Origin: Vermamoeba vermiformis | Taxonomy: Eukaryota | DNA length: 51,458 bases | Direction of reading: 5' to 3' | Assembly (NCBI GenBank): GCA_045837725.1 | Contig: JBEWZL010000115.1 | Span: 124,001 to 175,458, forward strand | Shown here: positions 5,101 to 51,458 of the stretch, in pieces | Layout: the number at the start of each line of letters is the position of its first letter | Position numbering within the stretch: position 1 is the stretch's first letter | Translations under genes and position numbers: made by a program | Notes under the pieces: model-generated | The model's input: the letters and a program-made list of their open reading frames with translations, nothing else | Told to the model about the DNA's origin: nothing | Databases searched by the model: none

Positions 5101-6300
5101 CCTCGCGAGATATACGCAGTTTTTTGCGCGGTGGACCGAACGGGTGCGAGCTATTCATGTCGCTGCTGTGCGGAGGTCTGTCCATGGGATTGGGACCTGT
5201 GCGCTCACCGCCAAAGAAGCGATGGCCCTTCCAGCTCGAAAAGCGCGGGATGTTTTTCTTGCGGTAGTGATAGCTGCGATTGACCTGCGGATTCTGCGTG
5301 GTCAGTGGATGACTCGCTGCAGGTCCTTGCAGCCAGCGCGGTCTCACAGGATCGTACTGCAGTGCCTTGACTTGATGTGCTTTGAGGCCCAGTCGTCGTG
5401 CGGCTGTCTTGACCAAGTAGCGCATCTCAGCGTCGTCGTCGTGCAGTGTCTTGCAGCCTGCGCAGTGTCAGTGGAGGACACGTGACACGTGAGATAGTGA
5501 TACGTACCATCGTCAGAGCCATACACAATGGTCTTGCGATTGACTGGCAGTGCTGCTTCAGCGACCAATCTGAAGCCGTAGTAGTCCAGCACGACCATCA
5601 TGGGCAAGTGCAGCTTGGGTATGTCGCACGCGAGCAGTGCATTCAGCGACTTGATCTCGTGGTCTGAGTAGCATACATGTTAGTCATACAGCACTGTCGC
5701 TATTAATAAGGGGTGTTAGTCGTACCCGCTGCTTTCATCGAGAACGAATCACCGCCGTAAATGCCCACGTGATCAGTGGCGAGCTTGAAGAATATGCCAT
5801 CGCGGAGGAACTTCTCTGTTGTTAATAATATGTCAGTAATAGTTACACAAATATCAACGCTGAACACGTACCACCGCCAGCCATGCCACGATCTCCGAAC
5901 CGATCGACGGTCTTAAACTTGGCAGCGAGTGAGTATTCTTCGATGATAGTCTTGCCAAGCTCCTTAGCCCTGCAGAAGTCACATTTAATACGCGATTCTT
6001 AATTCATTTTCGCTAGAAATAAGTTTGAAATTTGATCGAAATTACGCGCGCTTAATCAAAAGTACACCAAGGAAAAGATTACTGATTACGGTATTGCCAC
6101 TCATCAGCTGTATTACTATGATACTACGCTTACCTGTTCACGAACTCATTGTAGAGAGTGGAGAGTTTGACGGCGCGATCTAGCCGTTGTTCGGGGGTTT
6201 GGCTCGGCAGCTCGTAATAGCATTGGAACTTAGCATTCCATTCCGTTGAGAATACTGGGTCAGGTTTGCTTTCTTCGTGCACTGTTTGGAATTGGACCAT
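2194..6300 (-). CDS. Clu (clustered mitochondria/TIF31)-domain protein with C-terminal helical/TPR-like region; possible extra 5' exons up to ATG 6763
   Basis: Motifs GMAGGEKFLRDGIFFKLATD, YGGDSFSMKAA-HEIKSL, LPMMVVLDYYGFRLVAEAALPVNRKTIVYGSDD, PADVEGHKGTDHRLYILDVQRLFP, LYYLFRPELVR and MHKWGINLRYLGRI are typical of Clu domains. Multiple GT-AG introns; stop at 2194-2196. Confidence 0.85.
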
Positions 6301-7488
6301 TAGAACTCAGGTCAAAATTTAATCGCAATTTGAAACTGAGATCCGCCTTTACGGTAAACTAATATTGTTGCTATTCGGGTAATATATTGTGCGACAAGTA
6401 AAATTATGTCCTGTATCGTAATTCAGCTGAAAATATTACCCGCGACGACTGGGTAACGATTTATAAAATAGGTTGATATCAAATCCGCGGACTTACCACC
6501 GTTTGTAATAATATTGTCAAATAGACTAGTCGAACTAGACTTGTTTTCAGCTATAATTTGGTCATCGTACGGATTTCTTTCCTAGTTTCGAAGATCGGTC
6601 AGAACGAAAGAATCAACAAACGATTGTTCCAATTTAAAATATAATGCTAGTATTAATAGTCTTTTTAATAACGCTGTACCTCTAATCGAAACTCGAGTTT
6701 GACGGGTGGATACGGTGGAGGCTCTACAACGCCTCCTATTTCATCAAATTTTCTTTTCGCCATTTTATGCGCCTACAAATATAATATAAATATGAGGACT
6801 CGAGCGAAGAATTATAGGTTTTTCTTGCAGTATTCTCTAATTACGTTGTGCAACATCTCGGCATAAAATGCAAGTGCACGACGCGACATAGTGTAGCGCG
6901 ATAATATACAAATAGTTCTTCTATTAATTAGCACCTACTTATACAAGTGATGTCACTGAAAGATCGTCCACGCATCCATCCACTATCCTCGTTCGTATCG
7001 TCTATTTGTCTCGTGCAATAATTCAATCGCTGATGTAACTACTAACTAGTAATATGAGGTGTGCTAGTGCTCGTTGAGGAACTAGTCAATTAGAGCGCAA
7101 CCATTGCCCCAGCAAAAAATATTTTGTCACGGCAGACAGACACACTGCGGCAGAGTGAGGTATAATTATTACTTCCATTGCTCTGTCCGTGGACAATACT
7201 TAACGATAATAGGCGAGTGGCTGCAATGCACGAGAACCAAGGTCGTGTTAAAAGAAAATTGATGATTCTTTTGGATAACCAAATTGAAATTAGTTTGAGT
7301 TGCGAAATTAATCAAATTTGGATATATGGTCATGAATTGATTGGACGATTACTTACGAAGTTCTAGATGAGCGTTGAGATCGAAGGGTTATTAATTAAAT
7401 AAGGTTTTAATAATACAAGAGTTCGACTAATCTTACAAGGATTTTACACTGTACATAATGAGTATCATATTATATAACATTCGTTCTG

Positions 7489-8291
7489 TTAATTCAACGC
7501 ATCTTCTTTGGCAGCGTTGATCGGCAAGGGCGGTGGATAGGTTGGGTGGCGCGTTAGGACCACACTAATCTGGGCCTTTTGGATAGCAGCGTTTTCTATA
7601 AAAGCATAGGTTAGTCAGAGTCAGGCGATGATTAGGGCAAGCGACTTTGAATTCTCGCAAAGGATGGCTGCGAGATTGCAGCGGAGATTTTTGTCTTGGC
7701 ATTGATAAAATTAAAACAAAAGCAATAAAGAACGCCTTTCGGATCTAGTATTGGTATGATATGCTGTCAAAAGCTTGTTTCGGAAGCTCAGTAGCACATC
7801 CAAACCGCTTTTGCTCTTTTTTCGGTATAGTCCAGATGAGATGTCTTTATCCGATCTTAATGGCGAATACTTTGCTAAACTTACCATCTTCCGAGTCCAA
7901 AGATGATGTGGTAATCTCTGAATTTCAAATTTAATGTCAGAACGGATGGAAAAGTTATTCAATTTCGATTACTATTCGTAACTTACTGCTAATAACTCCA
8001 ATCTTTTTACTTTTTAGTATCTCTGCTATTGTAACTACAGTTTCCATCGCTAAAAACAAAAATTAAAATGCAATCCCAACAGTAAACACGCCGATCTGCC
8101 CGCATGAATATTGGCAGCAGCAAGGACTTACCTTGACCTAATCCGCTGACTTCTAATTTCTCCTCGGTCATGAAATATTTCTTTGCTAAGTCCACGTAAA
8201 AGAACGCTGATCGCCGACTCGACACCTTCATTACGTTGAATAATGGAGGGGTTTCCGAATCAAAACCGTCCTCACTTGTGGGTGTCGACAT
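7489..8291 (-). CDS. Alba-family DNA/RNA-binding protein (4 exons)
   Basis: Spliced: MKVSSRRSAFFYVDLAKKYFMTEEKLEVSGLGQ-AMETVVTIAEILKSKKIGVIS-KITTSSLDSED-ENAAIQKAQISVVLTRHP. This matches the eukaryotic Alba1-like consensus (FYV.LAK...lSgLG.Ai..vVt.AEiLK...I.Ts...qKa.i.I.L). Confidence 0.9.
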
Positions 8292-9325
8292 CGTCACGAA
8301 CTGTTAAAATAGCAAAACATAACTTTGTGCTTTGTTGAAAGTGTCGGCCGCTCACATTAATTTCCTAATTAGGGCTGAATCGTACAGAATGACAAATTTA
8401 GACATTTTCGGGGAGCTGCATGCTCGTGTTCGTACAAAACACCTCCGGTTCTATGTTCTTCCGGTCAATTGTTTCCTTCCCGAAAGCAATCCGACGACAA
8501 CAGGTTGACAGCCGGAAGTGTTGTGCAATAACCGAGGAGTAAGCTTTGCGAACGTCATAATACAGTCAATGAACCTATTAGTTATGACTAGCTCAAGTTG
8601 TGTCCAGCGGCGGAATTACTACCGAGATACAATCTCCTGGAACCCGGCATGCTTTTCTAAGTTCTAATCTTGTAAATTTACTTCTTTTCAATGTCGAGCA
8701 CAATGACGAGTATCAATAAACAGTTGATTATACCTAGCAGAAATGATATTTGTTTAATCTTATTCTAAATGTCGTTAAGTAATTATACTAACGCAAAGAC
8801 TACTTTTTACCAGATCGGTCAATTTCTTGATAAGAGTTAAACATGAGGAGCACTAAGAGATACGACCTCCCGATAGGTATCTCAAAAATCATTCGGACCG
8901 GAATAGTGTGAACTTTTAATTTAGAGAAGCAAACGATTGCCCCGAATAGCTGCTGCGGAATTACTGTAGGATCGTTCCACGTTTTAAAATAGATCTAAAT
9001 TTGATCTAGCACTACAATTGTCCAAAATTGCTGCCGATAATGGTCTCCGATCTGAAACGTCTCTTTCTAGTTGGTGTTTCTCTTTCCCGCAGCACTTGTG
9101 ACTTGACTACTGAGTCAACGCCAATGCATTGCCGATCACGCATACACAATATACTTATCAGCTCTCTGGGAGCTGTCGGATCGGCCCAATTGTGAACCTA
9201 AATATAATTTATGTCGCGTGATCCACTCACATAATTTGAGCGCTGCTTCTTTTACACAGAACACACTTAGTTTTAGTGTTTAATACTTGAACGGGGCCTC
9301 AAAGCCCGATGAGAAATTGATTTAT

Positions 9326-10741
9326 TTAAGCTTGCTTTGGTTTGGCAGCTCCAAGAGTTTTTCTTCTCTGCGCGAACATGTGCAAGTAAAGTTGCGGGAA
9401 GATGAATGGATACATTGCCATAGCACCAATCAACAAGTAGTAGAAGTAGAACGAGAAGTTCCAAGCGTTGGGCAAGCTAATTGAATACAACTTGTAACGC
9501 TCTTGATCAGGCATGCCCGAGAGGATGTTGTAGGCACCGAACAATACTAAACGACGTGAGTATATTTAATTAATCAAGTGGCAGTCTACGAAGCGAATTC
9601 CATACTACTATAGAGGGAATTCTGTAAATAAAATTTAATTCCGAAAGAAACTCGAGCAAAGTCACAAAACGACAGGCATGGAACTGCGTAATTTTAACCT
9701 AGCTGGCAAACTAGACTTACCTGAGAGTTCTCCTGCGACACCAGTGGGATAGAGCACGATAAAGGTCGTATATCTGCGATTAATCTCGTTAGTGCGGGAA
9801 GGTAACCAGCGATAAGAATTATTTTCCTTTGCACCCTTTAAGTGCACAACATTATATATATATTATGTAGGTACAGAGACGTGCGAATAATTAATTGTCG
9901 CGAGCCATACCTGAGCCAGACGAGGAAAGCAGGGCACTTGTCAATGATCGGCAACTTGAGCGCGTAGAACCAGTAGCGAATGACTTCAGTAATAGCCCAA
10001 CTCAACACCATCATCACAAAGAACCATGTTTCAGTAGTCTGCGCGCTATTGTTAATTCTCCACACATAGCAGTCAAAGCAGATTAGGCATACCTCAGGGA
10101 ACGTTCCAGCGACAAAGACAAGACCAACGCGCGACATGACTTGGAAAAATGTCAAGAAGACACTAGTGTGCACAATACCTGGGCAGAAACACTGCTGTTA
10201 GCACTGCTGAAAACTGTTGCAAATCTTGAATCTAACAGCCTTAAGGCTTTACCTAAAACGGCATGAAGGACCTACCAATATCATCGATTAGTACCAACGA
10301 TTATGAGAGTATGAACAACGGCGGATTTACCTCCAAAATAGCGGCGTATTGGAAAATCATCATAGGAATACTAATGTGGTACCACAATGATTTTTCTGGA
10401 TTAGGAATAGTAGCGAGACGATAGACAGTCGAATAGAGGATGTAAGTCCTAATGGAAATTATTTTTTAGATGCGAGTCAAAGATATTTTCCGCTGTTTCA
10501 TAAATAAAATGACTCTTAAACACCATAGCACACGGCACATTTTAGCAGCACAATTAAATATAGTTGAAATAATTTAATTTAATTTGAAAGTGGTGTTGAT
10601 AACGGTCATATTCTATTTATTTTCACCATACCATCCAAAAGCTTGCACAACATTGTACCAGAACAAGTAGATTTGTGCAATCTTCGAGGGTCCTCTACGC
10701 TCTTTGTTGGCGGTAGTATTCGTGCTGTTAGTAGTGCTCAT
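9326..10741 (-). CDS. PHS1: Very-long-chain 3-hydroxyacyl-CoA dehydratase (PTPLA/HACD/Phs1)
   Basis: YLFWYNVVQAFGW, FQYAAILE, TFFQVMSR, LSWAITEVIRYWFY, WLRYTTFIVLYPTGVAGEL (catalytic Tyr/Glu) and FPQLYLHMFAQRRKTL. Confidence 0.95.
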
Positions 10742-24602: not shown

Positions 24603-26112
24603 ATGAGAGAAGTTATCAGTTTACACATTGGCCAAGCAGGCGTTCAAGCAGGTGAATCCACTTGGGAACTCTTGTTGGCTGAGCATAACATCGCTAACGA
24701 TGGAACCATGAAAAACCCTACAGTTAGTACGTAGCCCTATAAATTTAGGTGATGTAAACATAGTTTAACTCTCCGATCCGCAGAGGATGAAGGGATTTCG
24801 ACGTTCTTTAGCCAAACCGACACTACTGGCAAGTATGTTCCTCGCTCCGTCTTTGTAGATTTGGAACCTAGCACCATCGACAGCGTTCGCAACGGTCAAT
24901 ACAAGAAGTTGTTCCATCCGTCGTCGCTTCTTTCCGGCAAAGAGGATGCCGCCAACAACTACGCCCGCGGTCACTACACTGTTGGTAAAGAAATGATCGA
25001 TCCCACTTTAGAGCGTATTCGCAAGCAAGCTGAGAGCTGCGACAGTCTCCAAGGCTTTTTGTTGTATCACTCCGTTGGTGGTGGTACTGGATCTGGTTTC
25101 GCCTCGTTGTTGATGGAAAGACTCTCAATGGACTTTGGCAAGAAGTCCAAGCTCGACTTCTGCATCTATCCTTCGCCTCAAGTCAGCACCTCTGTGGTTG
25201 AGCCCTACAACTCTGTGCTCTCAACGCATGCGCTCTTGGAACACGTCGACTGCGCATTTATGCTCGACAATGAAGCCATCTACGACATTTGCAAGAAGAA
25301 CTTGGACATTGAGAAGCCTTCGTACCTCAACTTGAACAGACTGATTGCTCAAATCACCTCGTCTTTGACCTCTTCTCTCCGATTCCAAGGTGCTCTGAAT
25401 GTCGATCTCAACGAGTTCCAAACCAACTTGGTGCCTTATCCTCGCATTCACTTCTTGCTCTGCTCTTATGCTCCCATGTCCTCTGCTGAAAAAGTAAGTT
25501 TTGTGTCATTTCGTTGTTTAGTTACTCGTAGTAACCTCCGCTTCATTAGTCGTACCACATGCAAAACTCAGTCTCCGAGATTACCAGCGCTGTCTTCGAA
25601 CCTCAAAATATGTTTGCGAAGTGCGATCCTCGTGTTGGCAAGTACATGTCTTGCTGCTTGATGTACCGCGGAGATGTCACCACCAAGGACGCCAACGCTG
25701 CCATTGCCTCGATGAAGAACAAGAAGGCCATTCAATTCGTTGACTGGTCCCCTACTGGCTTCAAGTGCGGCATCAACTATCAGCCCCCCACTGTCATCCC
25801 TGGTGGTGACTTGGCTGCTGTCAATCGCGCTGTGTGCATGTTGTCCAACACCACTGCCATTGCTGAAGTCTTCTCACGATTGGGTACGTACTAGTGCCAC
25901 ATTATTGACACTAACATGTCTAACGCTATCTTATAACAGACCACAAGTTCGATCTCATGTTTGCCAAGCGCGCTTTCGTTCACTGGTTCGTCGGTGAAGG
26001 TATGGAAGAGGGCGAGTTTACTGAGGCCCGTGAGGACTTGGCTGCCTTGGAGCGTGATTACATTGAAGTCGGTGCTGATCACAGCGACGAAGACGCCACT
26101 GAAGAGTTCTAA
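24603..26112 (+). CDS. TUBA: Alpha-tubulin (divergent), 4 exons
   Basis: [80 protein letters not shown]; ends in EEF*. Confidence 0.98.
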
Positions 26113-28730: not shown

Positions 28731-30493
28731 TTATTTCAGTGCGTATCGAGCCATTAAAGGCAAGTGGTCACTCGGATAGATTGGACTGGGCAGCGCTGTG
28801 TACGTGTCGATAGATTGCTTGAGCTCTGCATTCTTCGAACTCGTGGGATTCTCCAGCACTTCGAGCAATGTACACGTGGCAGGTTGATACCAAAGGTAGT
28901 CGAGACAGCCTAATGGAGCGACGAGTTGACGCGAATAAAAAGTGTGTATAGCTGAGGCATTTGTACCTTTGAATCCGGGCGTGTAATTGGACACAGGTTC
29001 TCCGAGTGATTTGTAACTGCTTTCAAAGCCAATGGGACTCGTGAACTCGACGATGGAGCTGTACTTGACTATTTGCGGCACAATGGTCTCTTTGAGGCGT
29101 TGCGCGGTGTGTATCTCGTAGACCATCGAGTCCGGCATGCTGTTGAAGTCACCGCAGGCCAGTGTCGTGTACTGGTCCGCAGTCAACTTCATCTCGTTGC
29201 ACATCTGTTGTTGGTACTCGTGCAGCTGATTCAACAAGTACCACGCTTGCATCAATTTGATTTCAGGTACTTCGGGGTCCCAGTAGAGGTGACAGTTTGA
29301 CACCCACACGTATTTGGGTTGTTCCGCGCCTGTCAATGCCTGCAACATCACGACGATCGCGACATTGTTCCGCTTAGTAGTGAACACGAGGTTTGGGAAT
29401 GATTGCAACTGCGGTGAATCAGCCACGAGCTTGTCCATTTCAACTTGAAACTTTTTGACCAATTTGAATCTAAGATCAGCGTTAGATATGTAATAGATGT
29501 TATTCGTCTGTTAATCGATTGCATTACTTGTTGGTGTTGAAGAAGATGCCGCAGCCATCACTCTTCAGTGAAGTTCGTTTGGTGTATTCGCCTTGATAGC
29601 CGAGGTCTTTGAAATGTGTTTTAAATGTCGGGAATTGATTTTCCTCGAACTCCTATGCACCGTCAGTGTATTAATATATGGACTAATGAATGGCGTTAGA
29701 GCTCGAATAGAACGTACTTGCAGACAGAAAATGTCGGGTTTGAACGTTTCGATCTCGTTGTATATTAACTTCTGTCTATACTCCCACAACAAGGCATAAT
29801 CGGGACAATAATAGTAGCGCGTATTGTCGCAATAACACTCCGCTAAAATATTGTACGACATGAGCGAGAAGGCTGCAGATCGATTAGAATTGATACGATC
29901 GTGATGAATGCTACGTACTAAAGTCCTTATCGGTTACAGAGGCACTCATTATCAGAGCTAATAGGCAGCATTTGTCGTTTAGGCGGATCTGGCAATTTTG
30001 GCAAGACCCAAAATAATTCAGTGTGGCGCGGTACATTTTCTATTTCATCAACGGTCCATGCCTCTACTTTCATTATGTGCATAAGATCTTCTTCACTGGT
30101 TGTGTAGTCGCTGGGAAAAATTAATTAAATTCGAATTTGAATTTTTTCAACGCTCGAAAATTATTGATAATTACAAGACCTATTTTGCAAAATATAACAT
30201 AATTACCTTGCGTCACTAAGGAAATACCAGTTCTTGAAATTAACTGTAGGATCTGCAGCCTTAGGATCCTTTGTCGCATCTAATACGCTGTCGACTTCAA
30301 AGCCGCGGAACCAGCGATAAACAATGTTTCTATTAGTGTTCCAGCGCGGTTTGATATTCGTGCCTACGAGCACATGGCGCAGGACACCATACAACCGCTC
30401 ATAAGTGAAGCCAATGGAGGTGTTGCTGTTGCTATAACTAGGATTATTATTATTATTATTATTAGTCTGTTCTGCCGTGTTGCGATTGCCCAT
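28731..30493 (-). CDS. CCR4/PDE12/Angel-type EEP-family deadenylase or phosphodiesterase (no LRR)
   Basis: SYNILA, DIFCLQE, NCHLYWDP, CGDFNSMPDS, NYTPGFK-GCLDYLWY, PSDHLPL; N-terminal region with VYRWFRG. Confidence 0.9.
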
Positions 30494-31072: not shown

Positions 31073-34000
31073 ATGCGCTTCTACGCAGTTTTATTCAGTC
31101 TACTCAAGATTGCACTGCTCGTGCGATCTCAAAACCCTTCTTGCGCGACGCTTATTCCTATGACTATCGTAAGTATTACGGCACATTTATATTAATGTAG
31201 TCCATTGATACGTGACGTGATTCACAAACTAACTTTATGCGCACAGACAGAGCTGGATGGCGTAATTAAGGGCGATGTAATATGGAGCGAAGATAAACAA
31301 GTAAGTACTTGATAAGGAACACTTTTAACATTATAAAAAACCGAAACAACCCCCTTCTACTCGAGTTTTCGTAATGTCTGGAAATAAAGGACTGCGGATT
31401 TATAAAATTTCGTTAGTTCGGACACAATCTAACATTTAGTTGGCAATTAGAACACTTAAATCAAATTATCAACATTAATTTCTCAAATTTGCGAGTGTTC
31501 TCTGGATTTGAACACCTCATACTAACCACGGATTTATCAGATTGCTTTCTTTTCAACCACTTTTTCCAATGGTCGCAATGGCTCGCTTTGGCGCAGTATT
31601 GACGGCGGTCTAACGTGGAACAAGTAAGCCCTAATTCAATTTCAGTTCAAGTCGCGTTATCATACGTTTCCTCGCGATGCTAATTCGATGGCAAAGTCAT
31701 ATATGATCAGCGCGTCTAATGTCACGATTTTCTAGCGAGAACCCGAAGCTCTCTGGAGCAGACAAGACGTGGAATCTGGATGGCAATGGTCCTGCTGGCG
31801 GAGTTTACGCTATTCACCCTGCAGCCACGCCCAACGTTGTGAGTATAATATGACTTATATAAGTACATTATCTTGACGATGTTTAGAGATTCTGCGTAGC
31901 AATCCTAAAGATACGCCTGTCAATTTACTTCTCAAATCCACCTTTCTGAACCTCACCTTATTGTTACCTAAATCACTCTATAATAATTATATGATATTTT
32001 CCAATTGCGTAATTACTATTGAATCACTTGCGATAAAGGCGTTTTTAGGTTCACAAAATGATATTTTATTTATAATTTTAATTAACAAAGCAACGATTCT
32101 TGTATTATAACTCGTATTAACAATGCCGTATAATGCGATTAGTTCTACTTTGAAGGCTGGGGTCCGCGCATGTGGGTCACCACGGACTTTGGAGAGACGT
32201 ACAACCAGGTCTATATTGGCGAACAATACGCGATTGAAGCAGTCTATCCACACCCGCGCCGCGACGATCTCTTCCTCGGCGTGTTGTCCTCGAGCTGCTG
32301 CTACCAACCCTGCTCTGATTACTGCTCGGCTGATGTACGTGTCACTCACATTTCATTGTCTGAATTATTCTTATCATCGCTCCATAATGTAATATTGGTA
32401 CTCATCGCCCCTATTTGCAGTTGGTCCTATTCGAGGGCTACGGTCTCACATCCGGCGCCACCGTGAGGAAGTACGTCAGCACGCGTCCTGACATCACAGT
32501 CAGCTGGGGCAAGGCTGGTTATGACGGCTACAGCGACAAATCGCTCTACGCTGTCTACGCGCCCGTGACAAATCAGGATCAGGTACACAACCGAAACTGT
32601 TTTCTCTTTGTTTAATTCCATGCCTTAATAATAAGCGGAGAATACTAATCCCGATATGTACTATGAATCAGAACATTATTTGTTCTGCGGCAGAAATGCT
32701 GTCGATTAATATCGAGTTTCTGCGCGAAATTTCAGAAATTTTACCTGAAGTTTGCTCCGTAGCAATGCTCGATTGACGACTATTGCAGTATTATATAGAT
32801 TATTAATCAATGTTATGCAGTACAATGTCGCTGAGGACGAATACGTGCTCGAGTTCATCACCGATGCAAGCGATCCCAACACTGTCACCTATCGAGTCGA
32901 CTCTGTATTTGGCTTTGTCTTCGTCAACGAAACCAACACGATTGTTGCTGGACAAGTACGTGACAATTGCGCTAATTTTACGTGAGTTTGCTGCTCACTC
33001 ATTGCCCTTTTAGTACACCAATTTCGGTGCGCGCTTGGTGACCTCGTCGGACAATTTAGCTACCGTGAATGCCATTGACTTTCCCAATGCCCCTGGTGTC
33101 ACTAGCATTGCTGAGAGTGTAAGTACACCTTGATCTCAAAGTCAGACACCATACCTAATCGTTTCATAGGGCTATGCATTCTTGGACACTGAAAAAGGCA
33201 CGCTGTTTGTTGGTGTGTTGGGTTATGCGTCAGGAGGACAACGAAGTACGTATAGACTAGGGAACTTGTTATTATACTTTGTGCTTATATTCATTCTTCA
33301 GCTGATCTCTATGGCTCTGATCAATTCTCCGACAATTTCCGATTGCTCCTCGAACATATCGTGTGGTGAGTACTGCAAATGAAGGTCTAGTTGAACGAGT
33401 GCACTAACAACTGCCTCTCAGGGACCAAGACGTCGCGTTCGGCAAAGTGTCAGGCATTGATGGCCTGTACATTGCCAACAGATATCAGAACGGCGGCAAG
33501 CAGTCCGTGCTCACCTTCAATCAAGGAGGCTTGTGGTCCACACTTCAAGTCAACGGCTCGTGCAACGGTTGCTCGCTCAACTTGTACTCGCCCTCGAGTG
33601 ACGTCAAAGATCATTTCTACTCGCGTCCCACCGCCCCTGGCCTCATCATCGCCACGGGCAATGTTGGTGTCAGTTTGAACGACGAACAATCTGCCGCTAA
33701 CACTTATTTCACGCGCGACGCTGGTTTGACTTGGAAGAAGTTGGCTTCTGGCAGTCATCTCGTGGCATTCTCGAACTTTGGCTCCTTGCTTTTGATGGTC
33801 GATGACTTGGACGCAATTGACAGCGTGCAGTAAGTGCCTCGAAAATGTCCCATGAGCATGGTTTGTCTAACAAATTTCAGATTCTCGATCGACCAAGGAA
33901 ACACATTCCAAAACTGTTCTTTAGTCGAGTCAGCCGACAACACTACCTCCGTCAACTTGCAAGCCGTGCGCATCTACACTGAGCCCACCACGACACAGAC

Positions 34001-44344: not shown

Positions 44345-44902
44345 TTTGTGATGCTAGTTTACAACTTGACGAGAAGCGTGCTTTTGTGGTACTTAAAGCG
44401 TGTAGAAGGATAGAATAAGATTGAACGACGCGAATTGTCTCGAGTGTCAAATCAATTTGACATGCAAAACCAACCGAAATCAAACCATATTATTCGCTAT
44501 ACATATAATATTAACACTGCATTATAGTGCGCAACTCATTGATATGCATAATAACTGAATCAAAATTCCCGCAATGGTTATGTCTCCCGTAGCCGGGGAC
44601 AAACAAAAGAAGAGCACACAGCTGTTTCATTCCTGTAAAATTCAAAGATGCAACAACAGCTGCATATTAAAAATATTTTGCAGCTGCATATCCCCCTTGG
44701 CGGAAGGGATGTAGGCTACGTTTATACCCAAACGACGAAGCCAAGCTTTGGCCTTACTTTGACAAGACAAGATACAAATGAAAGTTGGCATTATCAAGTT
44801 CAATTAATTTCCACGGACGGATCCAAACAAAAATGATGGATGCTGAGAGTTTGAGCTGGGCAAAGCGAAATCCTTATCGTCTACAAATTAATCCACATAC
44901 GT

Positions 44903-46171
44903 TGTAACAGAACGGTTTATCGAAAGGTATTGTAAAAATGCATTTGGGTATATTTGGGGGGCATTGGGAGGATTATTTGATGGAAAATCAATGTTTTGTA
45001 AGATTTTAATAAAATTTGATGTTGGCCCTTGAAATTACTTGCAAAAATCTGCAAATTTTCAATCATTGCTGCCCCATTCGGAAATCATTAGCAATTTCCA
45101 AATTAGGAAGGTTGCTAGCATAAACAATGCTTTACAGCATGTACATACCATTCCAACTTGTCCCGTCAAATTCTGTCAATTACTAACTGTTTGCCAGAGT
45201 GCTCCAAGGTGGAAACAGGCAGTTAGTGTAACTAGCAAATATAACCATATATGGCAGGAGGTTATGGACATCATAAGTGGACCTTTACAAAAAACAATGA
45301 TTTGAACTTGCCGCGCCAAATTCCGGCAATTACTAACGACTTCCTTGTTGCTCGTAATCCTTGTAAATTCTGTTTTTTAACTGAAATTTCGGGATTTGAC
45401 AGTAATTACCAAATTAGGAAAGGATGGGGCAGTTGGCATTTGTTGCACCATGGTTACTAAAGTTGAAACTTGTCCCGACAGTTTTTATCAATTACTAACG
45501 ATTTGCTGATCACTTTACTATATTTCTATATTAGGCAAGTAGAAAACTCAGTTTTCACCTGGGAAGTGCAAGGCATATAAATGATGAAGGGAAACTGTTA
45601 GTAATTGCCAGATCATATGCACACAAGTGCCAAGAGGAGTGTTTTGCAAATGTCCACCTCATGGACCCCTGATATGCACCACAAATTTCCTTTTTAGGCT
45701 ATTCCATGCTATATACTTGCTTTTTGCACTGTATTTGCCCTAGGAACACTCAAGTAAGCATCAGACTCCAATTCTTTTGTGTACCATGATCTGGCAACCT
45801 TCAAAGCATCAAATCATGATTACAAACCAGTGAAACACTTCCTAATATGGGCACCTTAGAGTAAAATGGGGTTTTCCCAGTTGATTTTCAAGAAAACAGG
45901 CTGTAACTTCAGCTCTACGGCATATTTTGATGTGCCGTTTTTTTTGTTCAACTTGCACTTCCATGTACTATGGGTTTTCTGAATAAAAAAATGAAATATA
46001 CCCAAATGCATTTTTACAATACCCTCCGATGTTTACAATTTATTGAAATTTCTTGAAGAAAGTTTGACCGAGTCACGCGACTCGCGAACAAGAAACAACG
46101 CCAACTGTAATCTTAGTCGTCTTTTATTCTTTTATTAATAAACAACTTTATTCTTCTCTTATTTTGTTACA
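44903..46171 (+). repeat. 5' LTR, interrupted (44903-44918 plus 46035-46171)
   Basis: TGTAACAGAACGGTTT at 44903 continues as ACAATTTATTG...TTTTGTTACA after the insertion. Once rejoined it matches the 3' LTR base for base over the visible part. 7-bp terminal IR TGTAACA/TGTTACA; AATAAA at 46137-42. Confidence 0.95.
44919..46030. mobile_element. Non-autonomous TIR DNA transposon (MITE-like, 1112 bp) inserted in the 5' LTR
   Basis: 37-bp TIRs at 44919-44955 (ATCGAAAGGTATTGTAAAAATGCATTTGGGTATATTT) and 45994-46030 (2 mismatches). GTTT is duplicated at 44915-18 and 46031-34; the empty site is visible in the 3' LTR. No transposase ORF. Confidence 0.93.
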
Positions 46172-46173
46172 TT

Positions 46174-46193
46174 TGGTTCCGATCACCTGGATC
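46174..46193 (+). other. Primer-binding site TGGTTCCGATCACCTGGATC
   Basis: Starts with TGG 2 nt after the LTR CA. Its reverse complement GATCCAGGTGATCGGAACCA fits tRNA positions 57-76 (G57 A58, C61, CCA end). Confidence 0.85.
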
Positions 46194-46220
46194 TGACTTC
46201 TAGTCCCCGTCCCATCCGCA

Positions 46221-47471
46221 ATGTCTAAGAACGGAAAAGCGAAAGAAAAGCTCACAAGCCGCGATTCACACTCCTCCGACGCTGAAGACGGCAATGTCAC
46301 TGTTGGTGGATCTGACACCCGCCCCGAGCCTCTGCCAGCATCTGCTGTAACCAACGCGGATCTTCTCAGCCGCGTCACCGCGCTGGAAAGCAAGTTCACT
46401 CGCTGCCAGGAGGACGTCGCCAAGACACGGGAGGATATAGGCAACATCTCTCGCCAACTTGAGATCCTCATCCAAGGTCAGCGGAACAACACCAACGGTC
46501 CCAACAACAACAACACCGTCCAAGACCTTTCACTTTCTGATGACGACGAAGTGCCCAAGGCAACTGTCACCACTATTCCAAAGAGACCCTTCAACTCGTC
46601 GCCTAATCGCGGAAATACCACCGCCGATCAGCGAGGACTCAACTCAACGTTGAATACGACGGTCTCTGCGCAAAATTCCCGAGTCCTTACTCAAAAGGAT
46701 GTGCCTCATGGGATTGGAACTTTTGACCCTGAATCCGTCGAGCTCGATGCGGCCACGTGGATCAAACGGATCAGGAAGTTTGCCCCAAGACTCAACTGGA
46801 GTGACGACAACAAAGTTCAAATTATGACTCTAACCTCTACTCCAGACGTGCAAGACTTCATTTTGGATCTTCCGCCCCACTTTAACTTCGAGCAAATCTC
46901 CGCTCGTGTCATCACGGAATATCCCGCTAAATACGCTGTGCATCGTCTGCTCAACCTGGAGACCATTGTTATGCAAGATGGAGAGGACTTGAAGAGTTAT
47001 ATCTCCCGCTTCAAGGATGCGTCGCGCGACTTTCCCGATATGGAAGAGGCCGTGAAAGTGGTTCGCTTCATAAAGGGCCTTGCAAGACGCTATAGCAGCA
47101 AGTTGGTCTCCCCTGAGCAATACGCTTCCCTCAAGCAAGCAATTGCCGCCGCGAAGCTGATTGACCTGAACTCAATGCTCGTCAACGGTCGCTCTGACAA
47201 CCGTGCTACGAAGCCCATGCTCTACACCAAGGCTAACGATGCTCCTACCAACGACCAGCGGGTTCTGAACAACTCCAATGTTGCCAGATCTGATCCTAAA
47301 AATGGATCGACCGCCAAGACGTCGTCGGAACGAGTTTCGAAGCCCTCGAACGCTCCAAAAGGGGGAGGGAAAAACGCCAGACAAGCCTACGTCAATAACA
47401 TTCGCTCCATGCTCATCGAAGACGAATCTGATGCGGATGACAACTCCTCGGATTCGGAAAACTTGATGTAG
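46221..47471 (+). CDS. gag: Gag (Ty3/Gypsy capsid), 416 aa
   Basis: Intronless ORF just after the PBS; N-terminal coiled coil; capsid-like WIKRIRKFAPRLNWSD and MHR-like QDGEDLKSYISRF. No CCHC knuckle. Confidence 0.9.
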   Translation: MSKNGKAKEKLTSRDSHSSDAEDGNVTVGGSDTRPEPLPASAVTNADLLSRVTALESKFTRCQEDVAKTREDIGNISRQLEILIQGQRNNTNGPNNNNTVQDLSLSDDDEVPKATVTTIPKRPFNSSPNRGNTTADQRGLNSTLNTTVSAQNSRVLTQKDVPHGIGTFDPESVELDAATWIKRIRKFAPRLNWSDDNKVQIMTLTSTPDVQDFILDLPPHFNFEQISARVITEYPAKYAVHRLLNLETIVMQDGEDLKSYISRFKDASRDFPDMEEAVKVVRFIKGLARRYSSKLVSPEQYASLKQAIAAAKLIDLNSMLVNGRSDNRATKPMLYTKANDAPTNDQRVLNNSNVARSDPKNGSTAKTSSERVSKPSNAPKGGGKNARQAYVNNIRSMLIEDESDADDNSSDSENLM

Positions 47472-47517
47472 GGGACAGTGTAGGCTCGGCTGATTCCCCA
47501 CGCCCTGTAGAGCCGCA
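47456..47517 (+). other. Putative -1 programmed ribosomal frameshift signal (G GAA AAC plus pseudoknot)
   Basis: Heptamer at 47456-62 in the gag frame; the pol frame (-1) is open from 47441. GGGGA 47471-75 pairs with TCCCC 47495-99, and loop GGCTC 47483-87 pairs with GAGCC 47510-14. Confidence 0.8.
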
Positions 47518-50500
47518 AAATAAACCCACCATGCATGCTGTTCCCTTTTCGCACGACTCCCCACTTCACATCCAAGTCCGCATCGGCGACAAACGGATCC
47601 AAACTCTTGTCGATTCAGGAGCGGAAAGGAATATTATGCATGAAAAATTAGCACGCAGGCTAGGCCTCCAAATTAAAGATGAACCAGTCTTTCTACTCGG
47701 AGCCGAAAATAGCCCAATCCAGACTGTCGGATCCACGATAGCAACTATTCAAATGGCCAGTCAACTACAGTACGATGTTAAATTCGTCGTATCCAACAAC
47801 ATATCACAACTGCTCATCCTTGGATCTCCGTTCCTCAATCTCGTCGCGCCACAGATCGACTACAAGACGCACAACCTTTGGTTCGAAGACCCTAGCTTCA
47901 AGCAAGTTTTCTTCCCGCCTAGCATCTCGAAGCAGGTCAAGGTCAGGACCCCGTACGACTTGGTGATTCCAGCAAGATCGGAAGTGGTGCTGCCGATCCC
48001 GGTCAAGGCAATGGACTGCTCCGCTCTGGTTGAACCAACACGCACCTTCAACCTCAGGTACGGCCTCCTGATGGGGCGAGCAGTCAACTCGATCACCAAT
48101 GGTAATGTACTCTTGAAATTCGTCAACGACAACAATAATGACGTTATTATTCCACGCGGTGAACGTATCTGCCGCTTGTGCCCATTCGAAAAAGTCATGG
48201 CCATCAATACCCACATCGACTCAACGCAGCACAACATCCCTGAAAACTACTTAGCTGGTTTTGAGCTGGATCAGGCCGAGATCACAGATCAAGAACGGCG
48301 ACAAGTAGAGCAATTGCTGCGCAAGTACTATCCCGTATTTGCCGATCGACTGGGCAATACTAGCATCATCCAACATCGCATTGAACTCACAGAGAACAAA
48401 ATTATTAAGAAGAACCCGTACACTATACCACGCGCCTACTACGACAACGTGAAGCAACAACTAGAGGACCTCGTCAAACAGAATATTATCACCCCTTCAA
48501 GGTCGTCTTACAGTTCGCCTATTGTGGTCGTGAAGAAAAAGGATGGCTCGCTCCGCATCTGCAACGATTTTAGGGAGCTCAATTCGGTAACTAAAAAGGA
48601 TGTTTATCCATTACCGAAAATAGACACAATATTGAGTGTACTTTCAGGATATTTATACCTGTCCACTCTCGATGCGCGTAGCGGATTCCTTCAAGTTCCG
48701 ATCCACCCCGATGATCGACACTTGACAGCCTTCACAACTCCGTTTGGGTTCTACGAGTATACTAGGATGCCTTTCGGATTGTGCAATGCTCCTGCGACCT
48801 TCCAAAGGATGATGGACCTTATTCTTTCTGGTCTAACATGGGAGGCTTGCCTCGTCTATATGGATGACATTATAGTCTTTGGACGAACCTTCGAAGAGCA
48901 CCTACATAATCTGGAGCTCGTCCTAGCTGCCCTGCAAGCTGCTGACATCACTATTAAGCCATCGAAGTGCAAGCTGTTCCGCAAGAAGATCGCCTTCCTT
49001 GGTCACGTCGTCTCTGCCGCCGGTATCGAAACAGACCCAGAGAAGATCAAGAGAGTCACGGAGATGCCAGCGCCCACTAATACGGAGCAGCTCCGTAGCT
49101 TCACAGGTCTGACAGGATACTACCGCAAATTTATCGCTAACTATGCCCACATATGTGAACCTCTCAATCGCCTGCTGCGCAAAGGAGAGCCTTGGGTGTG
49201 GTCAGATGAACAGCAACGCGCATTTGACACCCTTAAGGAGAAGCTTACGACTGCGCCAATCCTCGCGTTCCCCGACTTCAAGTCAAGCTTCACTCTGTAC
49301 ACTGACGCGTCCAACAGTGGTCTCGGTGCCGTCCTAGCGCAGTCTCAGAACGGGAATGAGGTCGCGATAAGCTATTGGTCACGTACCCTCAATAAGGCTG
49401 AGCGCAACTACTCCACAACAGAGAAAGAGTGCCTGGCCGTAGTGGATGCAATTCGACACTTCCGTTACTATCTTCTTGGAACCAAATTCACTGTCGTTGT
49501 GGACCACCATAGCCTCAAGTGGTTGAAAACAGTGAAAGACAACTCTCAGAGATTGATGCGCTGGAGCCTCACACTTCAAGAGTACGACTTTGACATCGTG
49601 TATCGCTCTGGAAAGAAGCACTCAAATGCAGATGCCTTGTCGCGCCTATTCAACATCAGCGAGGTCAAGCTCAACAATATACTCGACGAACAAGAAGAAG
49701 ATCCGACTCTGAAAGCCTACCGTGACTACCTCAAAGATGGCAGCCTACCAAGCGACCAATCCCTTGCTCATAATGTTCGCAACGCCTGCAAGGACATGAT
49801 TATTCAAAGCGATAATCTACTCTATCGCATCTGGCAAGCAGATCCTAAGTCGCATCCGCGATATCAGTTAGTGGTTCCTACTAAATTAAGGCCTTACATC
49901 TTAGAGCAATACCACGACACTGCATTCGCTGGTCACTTGGGGTTCTTCAAGACCTACGAGAAGATTCGCGAAAGATTCTATTGGGAAAGAATGGCAAACG
50001 ACGTTGCGCGCTGGATCGAGAGTTGCGAAGCCTGTTCACGTCGCAAGAAGAAGCACCTCAAAGGACTAATCAAGAATGTAGAGGCTAAAGCTCCGTTTGA
50101 CACAATTGCAATGGACATCCTTGGACCATTTCACGAGAGCCGCCAAGGAAATCGCTACATCATCGTCATCATCGATTACTTCACCAAATGGGTAGAGTGC
50201 TTCGCATTACCCACGCAATCGACTGCAGACATCGCCGTGAAACTCGTCGAAGAAGTGATCTGCCGTCACGGATCTCCAAAACGAATCTTGACTGACCAAG
50301 GAACGAACCTAGATGGTGCTCAACTTGCAAAAGACATTTACAAATTGCTTAGAACAAAGAAGATTCGCACGTCAGCATATCACCCACAAACTGACGGACT
50401 AGCGGAAAAATTCAATCACACTTTGGCGTCAATGCTGACTCACTACGTCAATGAGCATCAAGATGATTGGGACGAGCACTTAAATTACGTCCTCTTCGCT

Positions 50501-51289
50501 TACAGAACCGCTGTTCATGAATCGACCAAATTCTCGCCATTCTACCTGCTCTACGGACGACATCCGCGACTGCCTATGGACCCCGACCTTGTAGACCCAG
50601 ACGATGTTAGTGCAGAGTCCTACCACGAACACGCCCAACAAATGATCGACAAATTCAACGCTGCGTATGATCAGGTGCATAAGAACGTTCGCAAGGCTCG
50701 CAAACGTCAAAAGAAAAATACGGATAAAACGAAGAAGCAGCCTAAAATAGACAACGATGATCAAGTGTGGTTAGACGTTGGCCAAATCGCCCCTGGAACC
50801 ACAGCTAAGTTGTCATACCTTAATAACGGTCCTTATAATATCGAAAAAGTTAACAATAATAATACCGTCGATATCGTTCACGCAGAAAATACAGCAGATA
50901 AACATAAGGTCAATATTAGCCGCCTCCGCAAGCAGAAGAAACGGGACGAAGACTTGAAGATTCAGCCGCTGCCTTCCATCGACAGCACCCCGGAAACTGA
51001 AGTCACGCCTACAACGAAAACCACCGCCGTTGTGAGAGCCAGCCTGGAAATGCCCGCCGAACTTTCAGAAACACTTCAACAGATCCGCAGAATCATCGCC
51101 CGACCTGGTTTCAACAAAGTTGCCGCCCAGAAGAAAGTCCTGCAAAGCCTACTTGGTGTCAGCTCCCAGTTCTTCACCGACACGAAGCGCAAGGAGAAGT
51201 TTGCCGAAGAAATTTCAGCTGCCAGATCCGCTGACGATCTCGTCAAGCTCATCGACAGAGCATTGGACGAGTCAGGAGACTCTTCTTAA
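47459..51289 (+). CDS. pol: Pol polyprotein (protease, dUTPase-like linker, RT, RNase H, integrase), likely made as a Gag-Pol fusion
   Basis: LVDSGA (PR); LDARSGFLQ, MPFGLCNAPATFQR and YMDD (RT); TDAS...ECLAVV...DH...ADALSR (RH); H..GHLG...CEAC zinc finger, DILGP...DQG...AEKFN core and GPY motif (IN). No internal stops. Confidence 0.97.
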   Translation, partial: KLDVGDSVGSADSPRPVEPQNKPTMHAVPFSHDSPLHIQVRIGDKRIQTLVDSGAERNIMHEKLARRLGLQIKDEPVFLLGAENSPIQTVGSTIATIQMASQLQYDVKFVVSNNISQLLILGSPFLNLVAPQIDYKTHNLWFEDPSFKQVFFPPSISKQVKVRTPYDLVIPARSEVVLPIPVKAMDCSALVEPTRTFNLRYGLLMGRAVNSITNGNVLLKFVNDNNNDVIIPRGERICRLCPFEKVMAINTHIDSTQHNIPENYLAGFELDQAEITDQERRQVEQLLRKYYPVFADRLGNTSIIQHRIELTENKIIKKNPYTIPRAYYDNVKQQLEDLVKQNIITPSRSSYSSPIVVVKKKDGSLRICNDFRELNSVTKKDVYPLPKIDTILSVLSGYLYLSTLDARSGFLQVPIHPDDRHLTAFTTPFGFYEYTRMPFGLCNAPATFQRMMDLILSGLTWEACLVYMDDIIVFGRTFEEHLHNLELVLAALQAADITIKPSKCKLFRKKIAFLGHVVSAAGIETDPEKIKRVTEMPAPTNTEQLRSFTGLTGYYRKFIANYAHICEPLNRLLRKGEPWVWSDEQQRAFDTLKEKLTTAPILAFPDFKSSFTLYTDASNSGLGAVLAQSQNGNEVAISYWSRTLNKAERNYSTTEKECLAVVDAIRHFRYYLLGTKFTVVVDHHSLKWLKTVKDNSQRLMRWSLTLQEYDFDIVYRSGKKHSNADALSRLFNISEVKLNNILDEQEEDPTLKAYRDYLKDGSLPSDQSLAHNVRNACKDMIIQSDNLLYRIWQADPKSHPRYQLVVPTKLRPYILEQYHDTAFAGHLGFFKTYEKIRERFYWERMANDVARWIESCEACSRRKKKHLKGLIKNVEAKAPFDTIAMDILGPFHESRQGNRYIIVIIDYFTKWVECFALPTQSTADIAVKLVEEVICRHGSPKRILTDQGTNLDGAQLAKDIYKLLRTKKIRTSAYHPQTDGLAEKFNHTLASMLTHYVNEHQDDWDEHLNYVLFAYRTAVHESTKFSPFYLLYGRHPRLPMDPDLVDPDDVSAESYHEHAQQMIDKFNAAYDQVHKNVRKARKRQKKNTDKTKKQPKIDNDDQVWLDVGQIAPGTTAKLSYLNNGPYNIEKVNNNNTVDIVHAENTADKHKVNISRLRKQKKRDEDLKIQPLPSIDSTPETEVTPTTKTTAVVRASLEMPAELSETLQQIRRIIARPGFNKVAAQKKVLQSLLGVSSQFFTDTKRKEKFAEEISAARSADDLVKLIDRALDESGDSS

Positions 51290-51306
51290 AAAGAAGGGGG
51301 ATGGAA
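51288..51306 (+). other. Polypurine tract
   Basis: AAAAAGAAGGGGGATGGAA immediately before the TG of the 3' LTR, overlapping the pol stop codon. Confidence 0.9.
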
Positions 51307-51458
51307 TGTAACAGAACGGTTTACAATTTATTGAAATTTCTTGAAGAAAGTTTGACCGAGTCACGCGACTCGCGAACAAGAAACAACGCCAACTGTAATC
51401 TTAGTCGTCTTTTATTCTTTTATTAATAAACAACTTTATTCTTCTCTTATTTTGTTAC
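51307..51458 (+). repeat. 3' LTR (~153 bp; last base cut off by the window edge)
   Basis: Direct repeat of 44903-44918 plus 46035-46170. Confidence 0.97.

What the first reader, a model, noticed from the sequence alone, without database searches (positions are those of the whole stretch)
44919..46030. Unclassified TIR DNA transposon (ATCG...CGAT ends, 4-bp GTTT TSD) caught inside an LTR, with its empty site in the same window
Seen: 37-bp TIRs, GTTT on both flanks, and the 3' LTR preserving the pre-insertion sequence (AACG-GTTT-ACAA), so the insertion point is known exactly. Knowledge: superfamilies with 4-bp TSDs have other hallmarks (piggyBac and Kolobok use TTAA, Ginger ends in TGT, Sola2/3 end in GRG/GAG). 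I cannot place ATCG termini with a non-TTAA TSD in any of them. Inference: a non-autonomous member of a poorly described or new DNA transposon family whose transposase is encoded elsewhere in the genome.
Basis: partly seen in the sequence, partly recalled or inferred. Interest (0 to 1): 0.8.

Follow-up and report, generated by a model that had tools for sequence, protein, structure and literature searches.

The report
Young unclassified non-autonomous DNA transposon
A 1.1-kb, non-coding "cut-and-paste" DNA transposon from an abundant, recently active family has landed inside a very young retrotransposon; it is a real mobile element, but nothing here shows that it is a new kind of transposon.

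Summary
Window 44919-46030 is a 1112-bp insert with 37-nt terminal inverted repeats (35/37) and ATCG...CGAT ends. GTTT flanks it on both sides. It sits 12 nt into the 5' LTR of an intact Ty3/gypsy element. With the insert and one GTTT removed, that LTR matches the 3' LTR at 152 of 152 positions, and the 3' LTR carries the empty site.

Contigs of four public runs show a repeated family. Summed depth jumps about 30-fold or more exactly at the two ends. In run X1, 568 of 975 laid pieces are at least 99% alike. Four other copies have unrelated flanks abutting ATCG. The insert has no ORF over 90 aa and no Pfam hit above cut-off. No transposase lies among the window's 62 ORFs of 110 aa or more.

It is therefore a non-autonomous element moved in trans. 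The superfamily could not be assigned: no genome is held and five collection scans found no further copies. Microhomology allows a duplication of 3-5 bp. Verdict: real and recently active, a new member of a known kind, of modest interest.

The parts
44919..46030 (+). The inserted element: 1112 bp, 37% G+C, non-coding, non-autonomous TIR DNA transposon
   Evidence: the depth step at both ends in run X1
44919..44955 (+). Left terminal inverted repeat, 37 nt, starting ATCGAAAGG
45994..46030 (-). Right terminal inverted repeat, 37 nt (reverse complement starts ATCGGAGGG); 2 mismatches to the left arm
44936..44945 (.). 10-bp perfect palindrome AAATGCATTT inside the left TIR (mirror copy at 46004-46013); a possible binding site for a dimeric protein (inference)
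44915..44918 (.). Left copy of the target-site duplication GTTT (TTT or GTTTA also possible)
46031..46034 (.). Right copy of the target-site duplication GTTT
51319..51322 (.). Single GTTT of the uninterrupted (empty) site in the 3' LTR
   Evidence: the same uninterrupted LTR start is seen as loose ends at 46031 in 4 of 4 runs
45155..45506 (+). Three direct copies of a 40-nt unit (45155-45194, 45305-45344, 45467-45506; 78-83% alike), each holding CAATTACTAAC. A fourth, inverted copy lies at 45589-45612
45077..45420 (+). Second repeated unit of 33 nt (45077-45109 and 45388-45420, 76%). Together with the 40-nt unit it marks an old internal duplication of about 311 bp
44903..46171 (+). 5' LTR of the host Ty3/gypsy element, split by the insertion (44903-44918 plus 46035-46171 = 153 bp, TGTAACA...TGTTACA)
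   Evidence: LTR end also seen (pieces ending at 46171)
46221..47471 (+). gag ORF of the host LTR retrotransposon (416 aa)
   Evidence: Retrotrans_gag, E 7e-05, just below the Pfam cut-off
47531..51289 (+). pol ORF (1252 aa): protease, dUTPase, reverse transcriptase, RNase H, integrase
51307..51458 (+). 3' LTR (152 of 153 nt; the window ends one base short), preceded by a polypurine tract

Best explanation
This is a non-autonomous cut-and-paste (TIR) DNA transposon of a multi-copy, recently active family in an unidentified microbial eukaryote.

Proposed mechanism: a transposase encoded elsewhere in the genome recognises the 37-nt terminal inverted repeats, which contain a 10-bp palindrome. It excises the element and inserts it with a staggered cut, most likely 4 nt, at A/T-rich targets. 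Gap repair then duplicates GTTT.

This copy landed 12 nt inside the U3 end of the 5' LTR of a very young Ty3/gypsy element, so the insertion is younger still.

Shown: the insertion, its exact boundaries to within the 3-5 bp ambiguity, its lack of coding capacity, and its membership of a repeated family with conserved ends.

Inferred: trans-mobilisation by a DDE/DDD-type transposase, and the 4-nt stagger.

The superfamily cannot be assigned here. Among described superfamilies Sola fits best (about 0.3). The fit rests on a 4-bp non-TTAA duplication, variable termini, and A/T-rich 4-bp targets in amoebozoan Sola2. AcademX, CMC and others remain open.
For: Structure: 37-nt TIRs at 35/37, with no match in any of 100 shuffles. 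GTTT lies on both flanks and once in the paralogous 3' LTR. The LTRs are 152/152 identical after removing the insert and one GTTT.

Family evidence, all:
- In run X1 the summed contig depth is 139-276 in the three bins left of 44872 and 49-138 in the four bins right of 46044. It is 3979-10572 in the 21 bins inside the element. The two boundary bins hold 572 and 5205.
- Of 975 pieces laid in X1, 568 are at least 99% alike, 316 are 95-99%, 84 are 90-95% and 7 are below 90%.
- Other copies meet unrelated flanks exactly at the left terminus: loose ends at 44918/44919 in X6 (2) and X7 (1), and a head-to-tail pair 33 letters apart in X1.
- The base before ATCG is T, T, A, T, A in the five copies, so ATCG is the true end.
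- Contigs in X1 (4) and X6 (2) share the TIR up to 44955 and then continue with one other interior; an X7 contig does likewise with a different one. So other subfamilies, possibly the autonomous one, use the same TIR.

Non-autonomy: the longest ORF is 90 aa, and none of 6 ORFs is above a Pfam cut-off. There is no other copy in the window. No transposase domain occurs in 62 of 62 ORFs of 110 aa or more.

Youth: the host LTRs are identical. The retrotransposon itself is polymorphic, because contigs lacking it at this locus appear in X1 and X2 (loose ends at 44902).

Target: the 4-mers abutting the termini of the five copies are 17/20 A/T against a window background of 0.557, binomial P 0.006.

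Literature passages: Sola has 4-bp TSDs, very variable termini and TIRs of 11-1124 bp. Sola2 in Dictyostelium fasciculatum and Polysphondylium pallidum has A/T-rich 4-bp TSDs.
Against: - No transposase or autonomous copy was found, so the catalytic class and the superfamily are inferred, not shown.
- The duplication length comes from one insertion, and TTT, GTTT and GTTTA all fit the empty site.
- For the other copies only one flank each was visible, so no second duplication could be read.
- None of the 31 contig pieces listed (977 more were not shown) bridges this particular insertion together with its LTR flanks. This exact insertion therefore rests on the window's assembly alone. X2 piece 15 runs 10 nt past the right end and then diverges from the LTR, which I cannot explain.
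- Summed contig depth is not a copy number, as the tool itself warns.
- The A/T-rich target preference rests on 5 sites. Three of them come from metagenome contigs whose organism is not established.
- Pfam has no models for Sola, Academ, Kolobok and some other transposases. The absence of a transposase hit in the window is therefore weak evidence.
- The element is 1112 bp, longer than typical MITEs, which are mostly under 500 bp.
Confidence: 0.85

Rival explanations
1. The family represents an undescribed superfamily, or a deep new lineage, of eukaryotic TIR transposons. Its marks would be AT...AT (ATCG...CGAT) termini and a 4-bp non-TTAA duplication.
For: The ends and the duplication fail the defining marks of these groups:
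- piggyBac and Kolobok: TTAA, with CC..GG or RR..YY termini.
- Ginger and IS481EU: TG..CA or TGT..ACA termini.
- The PHIS groups: TWA, ANT, CWG, TNA, AT or no duplication.
- Tc1/mariner: TA.
- IS3EU/GingerRoot: TA..TA termini with 6 bp.

The host appears to be a little-studied protist. Its alpha-tubulin is at most 82% identical to all but one environmental protein. The TIR was found in none of three public contig collections.
Against: Termini are weak classifiers. Sola termini are described as very variable. AcademX (3-4 bp) and CMC (2-4 bp) were not excluded by any test here.

Unclassifiable non-autonomous families are commonplace: 481 of 6012 insect MITE families could not be assigned.

No transposase was seen, and Repbase and Dfam were not available.
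Confidence: 0.08
2. The true duplication is 3 bp (TTT) or 5 bp (GTTTA), and one terminal base is asymmetric. The element would then belong to a 3-bp group (AcademX, CMC, Zator) or a 5-bp group (Ginger2-like, short-duplication hAT, Transib-like).
For: The two junctions share GTTTA, so all three lengths reproduce the empty site. A G follows CGAT in three of the four right ends seen: this window, the X1 head-to-tail joint and X2 piece 15. All five left ends start with A.
Against: Only a 4-bp duplication leaves perfectly symmetric ends (ATCG / CGAT), which is the rule for TIR elements. X6 piece 21 stops matching at 46030, so G at 46031 is not part of every copy. The termini do not resemble the CACTA-type or TG..CA ends of the 3- and 5-bp groups named (CACTA and Transib ends are recalled; Ginger ends are).
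Confidence: 0.12
3. It is not a transposition event at all, but an assembly chimera or a rearrangement that placed a repeat inside the LTR.
For: No listed public contig bridges this insertion with its LTR flanks. The window ends inside the 3' LTR, a typical assembly break.
Against: A chimera would not create an exact 4-nt duplication of LTR positions 13-16 while leaving the remaining 152 LTR positions identical. The inserted block ends exactly at the family's conserved termini, as defined independently by other copies.
Confidence: 0.01

Closest known systems
Sola superfamily (especially Sola2 elements of dictyostelid amoebae)
   Same: 4-bp, non-TTAA target-site duplication. Termini are not fixed, and reported TIRs range from 11 to 1124 bp (review passage citing Bao et al. 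2009). In Dictyostelium fasciculatum and Polysphondylium pallidum the duplications are A/T-rich (AWWT; ATAT, AAAT, ATTT) (passage). Here the 4-mers next to the termini are 17/20 A/T.
   Different: No DDD transposase was seen, so homology is untested. The dictyostelid elements have 12-21-bp TIRs against 37 bp here. The duplication here (GTTT) contains a G. The actual Sola termini are shown in figures and supplements that I could not read (Additional file 11 of PMC3627910; Bao et al. 2009 is not held).
AcademX lineage of Academ
   Different: No Academ transposase or XPG-type nuclease is available to compare. Academ termini were not available in any paper I could open.
Ginger1/Ginger2 and IS481EU (integrase-like transposases)
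   Same: Duplications of 4 bp (Ginger1), 4-5 bp (Ginger2) or about 4 bp (IS481EU), and TIRs of tens of bases.
   Different: Those families carry TG..CA or TGT..ACA (TNT..AYA) termini. This element ends AT..AT.
piggyBac and Kolobok
   Same: 4-bp duplication.
   Different: Both are TTAA-specific, with CC..GG (piggyBac) or RR..YY (Kolobok) termini. Here the duplication is GTTT and the termini are AT..AT. None of the four other flanking 4-mers (TAAT, ATCA, AGAT, TAAA) is TTAA.
MITEs and other non-autonomous deletion derivatives in general
   Same: No coding capacity, conserved TIRs, a high copy number, trans-mobilisation, and several subfamilies sharing the same ends.
   Different: At 1112 bp it is longer than most MITEs, which are mostly under 500 bp. 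Its interior carries its own degenerate repeats.

Membership tests
piggyBac | TTAA target-site duplication and 5'-CC..GG-3' termini | tested here: not met
   The duplication is GTTT and the termini are AT..AT. Definition.
Kolobok | TTAA-specific 4-bp duplication and 5'-RR..YY-3' termini | tested here: not met
   GTTT; the ends are A-T (R-Y) at both termini. Definition.
Ginger1 / Ginger2 / IS481EU | TG..CA (TGT..ACA, TNT..AYA) termini | tested here: not met
   The termini are ATCG..CGAT in this copy and in four other copies. Definition.
Ginger1 / Ginger2 / IS481EU | 4-5 bp duplication | tested here: met
   3-5 bp, most likely 4.
PHIS (Harbinger, Pangu, NuwaI, NuwaII, ISL2EU, Spy) | Group-specific duplications: TWA, ANT, CWG, (C)TNA(G), AT or none | tested here: not met
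   Only TTA can be carved from GTTTA, and that would leave ends offset by 3 nt. The 3-mers ending at the A of ATCG in the other copies are ATA, CAA, ATA and AAA, none of them TWA. Definition.
Tc1/mariner-pogo (ITm) | TA duplication | tested here: not met
   A TA reading would need ends offset by 4 nt, and TG follows the right end in 3 of 4 copies. Definition.
IS3EU / GingerRoot | TA..TA termini and 6-bp duplication | tested here: not met
   The empty site allows at most 5 bp, and the termini are AT..AT. Definition.
Sola | 4-bp target-site duplication | tested here: met
   GTTT is duplicated, with 3-5 bp ambiguity. Definition.
Sola | DDD transposase of the Sola1, Sola2 or Sola3 type in the autonomous copy | not testable with these tools
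   No genome is held. The TIR is absent from three contig collections.
Sola (Sola2 of Amoebozoa) | A/T-rich 4-bp targets | tested here: inconclusive
   17 of 20 bases in five terminus-adjacent 4-mers are A/T, P 0.006 against the window background. There are only five sites, and only one of them is a verified duplication.
AcademX | 3- or 4-bp duplication | tested here: met
   3-5 bp is allowed. Definition.
AcademX | Academ transposase with a nuclease partner | not testable with these tools
   No autonomous copy is available.
CMC (CACTA / Mirage / Chapaev) | 2-4 bp duplication and CAC-type termini (termini recalled, not from a call) | tested here: inconclusive
   The length is compatible. The termini ATCG do not match the recalled CACTA-type ends.
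Non-autonomous TIR element (MITE-like) | TIRs, a target-site duplication, no transposase ORF and multiple copies | tested here: met
   The size of 1112 bp exceeds the usual MITE range.

The most novel reading that the evidence does not exclude
The 37-nt TIR family (ATCG...CGAT ends, 4-bp A/T-rich duplication) is driven by a transposase that belongs to no named eukaryotic superfamily, or to a deep unsampled branch of Sola or Academ. It would be currently active in a widespread but genomically obscure water and soil protist. The TIR-sharing subfamily glimpsed would be its autonomous copy.
Probability: 0.08. Interest if true: 0.6.

Novelty: new member of a known kind. Interest (0 to 1): 0.3.

Why it matters
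It is a clean example of a very recent DNA-transposon insertion. The pre-insertion sequence is preserved in the same window. The host retrotransposon has identical LTRs and is itself polymorphic between public data sets, so both elements are probably still mobile in this organism.

That makes the family a good entry point for finding an active transposase in a poorly studied microbial eukaryote, and for dating and population studies. If the transposase proved to lie outside the named superfamilies, it would extend the catalogue of eukaryotic cut-and-paste enzymes.

As it stands, unassignable non-autonomous families are common and this one is not surprising.

Tried and rejected
Search for other copies and the organism's genome:
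- Whole-genome search of the window's own assembly: no genome is held.
- Exact-pattern scans for the TIR core (24 nt) in metagenome, prokaryote-genome and viral contig collections: 0 hits each.
- Scans for the terminal 22 nt, with the two variable positions written as R, in metagenome and genome contigs: 0 hits each. These scans find exact matches only.
- Earlier notes of this scan by place, sequence and words: nothing.
- Other TIR elements in the window: of 17 inverted-repeat pairs only this one is convincing. There is no tandem array in the element.

Identifying the organism failed:
- The CLU-exon search found nothing.
- Alpha-tubulin is 97% identical to one unnamed environmental protein and at most 82% to the rest.
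- pol is 100% identical to one unnamed NCBI protein on a 6136-nt contig; the next best is 48%.
- Language-model look-alikes point variously to Rotifera, Arthropoda, Chlorophyta and Discosea.
- There is no Rfam family or tRNA in the window.

Habitat: small shares of the element's words in soil, water, canine and other metagenomes were laid only for X2, X6 and X7. I name no habitat from the rest.

Readings considered and dropped:
- Introner-like element. The TIR holds a GGTATTG and the interior holds four TACTAAC-containing motifs, but there is no AG near either end.
- Harbinger (TTA) and mariner (TA) readings of the junction. Both need asymmetric ends and disagree with the other copies.

Papers not held: Bao et al. 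2009 (Sola), Yuan and Wessler 2011, and Kojima 2020 (AcademH). The termini of Sola1-3, Academ and CMC are therefore not verified from primary sources.

Full report
WHAT IS THERE

Window 44919-46030 is a 1112-bp block of 37% G+C. Its first and last 37 nt are inverted repeats matching at 35 of 37 positions; the two mismatches are at TIR positions 5 and 7. A search for the left arm at up to 3 mismatches finds only the two arms in the 51,458-base window, and none of 100 shuffles gave any match. Complementarity stops abruptly at position 37. The block begins ATCG and ends CGAT, and GTTT lies directly outside each end.

THE HOST ELEMENT AND THE EMPTY SITE

The block sits in the 5' LTR of an LTR retrotransposon.
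- The LTR starts at 44903 (TGTAACA...) and ends at 46171 (...TGTTACA). It is followed by a primer-binding-site-like TGG motif.
- The gag ORF is 46221-47471.
- The pol ORF of 1252 aa is 47531-51289. It holds protease, dUTPase, reverse transcriptase, RNase H and integrase domains.
- A polypurine tract and the 3' LTR (51307-51458) follow. The window ends one base short of the LTR end.

The 3' LTR reads TGTAACAGAACG-GTTT-ACAATT without interruption. When the block and one GTTT are removed by coordinates, the 5' LTR equals the 3' LTR at 152 of 152 comparable positions. One search found the 140-nt part to be 100% identical. The pre-insertion sequence is therefore known, and the insertion duplicated LTR positions 13-16.

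A duplication of TTT, GTTT or GTTTA would each regenerate the empty site. Only GTTT leaves symmetric ends.

IT IS A FAMILY, NOT A ONE-OFF

No genome is held for the window, and the window has no second copy. The element's 31-mers occur in public runs. Of 23 listed rows, 20 hold part of it and 4 hold at least half its words. The best is a run of a coded 'organism A' (0.88), followed by an aquifer metagenome (0.77).

I laid the contigs of four runs on 44719-46230. The results were:
- Depth in X1. Summed depth is 139-276 in the three bins left of 44872 and 49-138 in the four bins right of 46044. It is 3979-10572 in the 21 bins inside the element. The step falls in the two bins that contain the termini. 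The tool warns that this is not a copy number, but it does show a repeat whose limits coincide with the TIR ends.
- Similarity in X1. Of 975 pieces, 568 are at least 99% alike, 316 are 95-99%, 84 are 90-95% and 7 are below 90%. This suggests a young family.
- Other insertions. Unrelated sequence abuts the left terminus in two X6 contigs and one X7 contig. One X1 contig joins the right end of one copy to the left end of another across 33 letters. The base before ATCG is T, T, A, T, A in the five copies, so ATCG is the real terminus.
- Subfamilies. Four X1 and two X6 contigs share the TIR up to 44955 and then continue with one different interior. One X7 contig does the same with another interior. 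Other subfamilies, conceivably the autonomous element, therefore use the same ends.
- Empty sites. Uninterrupted LTR starts (…AACAGAACG before 46031) appear in 4 of 4 runs. Contigs lacking the whole retrotransposon at this locus appear in X1 and X2 (loose ends at 44902). The retrotransposon is thus itself polymorphic.

Against my reading: none of the 31 listed pieces (977 more were not shown) bridges this particular insertion with its LTR flanks. X2 piece 15 runs 10 nt past the right end before diverging from the LTR, which I cannot explain.

NO CODING CAPACITY

The longest stop-to-stop frame is 90 aa, and it overlaps the internal repeats. None of the six longest frames reaches a Pfam cut-off.

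All 62 frames of 110 aa or more in the window were scanned. The hits above Pfam's cut-off are host genes (CLU/eIF3-p135, alpha-tubulin, sortilin, LRR, PTPLA) and the retrotransposon. There is no transposase. Pfam lacks models for Sola, Academ, Kolobok and some other transposases, so this negative is weak. However, an autonomous partner would also need the TIR, and the TIR occurs nowhere else in the window.

The interior carries the following:
- three direct copies and one inverted copy of a 40-nt unit containing CAATTACTAAC;
- a second 33-nt unit present twice;
- each TIR also holds the 10-bp palindrome AAATGCATTT.

HOW IT MOST LIKELY WORKS

A transposase supplied in trans binds the TIRs, excises the element and integrates it with a 4-nt staggered cut. 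Repair then produces the duplication. The steps shown are the insertion, the duplication, the conserved ends and the multiplicity of copies. The enzyme and the stagger are inferred.

The 4-mers next to the termini (GTTT, TAAT, ATCA, AGAT, TAAA) are 17/20 A/T against a window background of 0.557 (P 0.006). This hints at an A/T-rich target. It rests on five sites, only one of which is a verified duplication.

Because the insertion lies in U3 of the 5' LTR, it would not be copied into progeny of the retrotransposon. This follows from established LTR-retrotransposon replication and is an inference here.

COMPARISON WITH KNOWN SUPERFAMILIES

Defining marks are taken from passages I read. The following were tested and failed:
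- piggyBac: TTAA, CC..GG termini.
- Kolobok: TTAA, RR..YY termini.
- Ginger and IS481EU: TG..CA or TGT..ACA termini.
- The six PHIS groups.
- Tc1/mariner: TA.
- IS3EU/GingerRoot: TA..TA termini, 6 bp.

The following were not excluded:
- Sola: 4-bp duplications, 'very variable terminal sequences', TIRs of 11-1124 bp. Sola2 elements in two dictyostelids make A/T-rich 4-bp duplications.
- AcademX: 3 or 4 bp.
- CMC: 2-4 bp.
- MuDR/IS256 relatives: 4-10 bp.

Bao et al. 2009 and Yuan and Wessler 2011 are not held. The supplement of PMC3627910 that shows the dictyostelid Sola2 ends is closed. Unassignable non-autonomous families are common: 481 of 6012 insect MITE families were left unclassified.

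ATTEMPTS TO GO FURTHER

Five exact-pattern scans of three contig collections for the TIR found nothing. The scan's earlier notes hold nothing.

The organism remains unidentified:
- Its alpha-tubulin is 97% identical to one unnamed environmental protein and at most 82% to all others listed.
- Its pol is 100% identical to one unnamed NCBI protein and at most 48% to the rest.
- Language-model look-alikes give no consistent taxon.
- It has short GT-AG introns, for example 52 nt at 33831-33882.

VERDICT

The element is a real, very young, non-autonomous member of an abundant TIR transposon family. Its superfamily is open. Sola is the best fit among named ones (about 0.3), and a truly new superfamily has a probability of about 0.08. 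I rate it a new member of a known kind, with an interest of 0.3.

Noticed in passing
window 44903-51458: The host element is an apparently intact Ty3/gypsy retrotransposon. It is about 5.44 kb without the insert and has very short 153-bp LTRs that are 152/152 identical. A dUTPase domain lies between protease and reverse transcriptase (pol residues 139-222, E 3.8e-06). The window ends one base before the end of the 3' LTR. An identical pol (100% over 94% of the query) exists on a separate 6136-nt NCBI contig; the next relative is 48% identical.
   Followed up: partly
window 44902/44903: Contigs in runs X1 and X2 run through 44902 and then continue with unrelated sequence instead of the LTR. The retrotransposon insertion at this locus is therefore absent from some genomes or haplotypes, that is, polymorphic (table 7).
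   Followed up: no
window 44919-44955 (loose ends at 44955): Contigs in three runs share the 37-nt TIR and then continue with interiors unlike this element: one interior in X1 (4 contigs) and X6 (2 contigs), and another in X7. These are sister subfamilies or the autonomous partner.
   Followed up: no
table 5c (run X1): One contig joins the right end of one copy to the left end of another across 33 letters. Two copies therefore lie head to tail almost back to back. The spacer contains a 7-nt match to the start of the right TIR.
   Followed up: no
window 45155-45612: The motif CAATTACTAAC occurs four times inside the element (three direct, one inverted). It contains TACTAAC, the classic branch-point heptamer, and the TIR contains GGTATTG. 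I considered an introner-like role but found no AG near either end.
   Followed up: partly
window 24753-25894: An alpha-tubulin gene (Tubulin and Tubulin_C exons). Its product is 97% identical to a single unnamed environmental protein and at most 82% to every other listed hit. The host is thus a poorly sampled eukaryote.
   Followed up: partly
window 33831-33882: A 52-nt intron (GTAAGT...CTAAC...CAG) interrupts the sortilin/Vps10 gene in frame and supplies an apparent stop codon. The standard genetic code suffices.
   Followed up: yes
window 28731-29510 (-): A 259-aa frame with a weak endonuclease/exonuclease/phosphatase match (E 0.0023, below cut-off). It could be a remnant of a non-LTR retrotransposon endonuclease or a host gene.
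   Followed up: no
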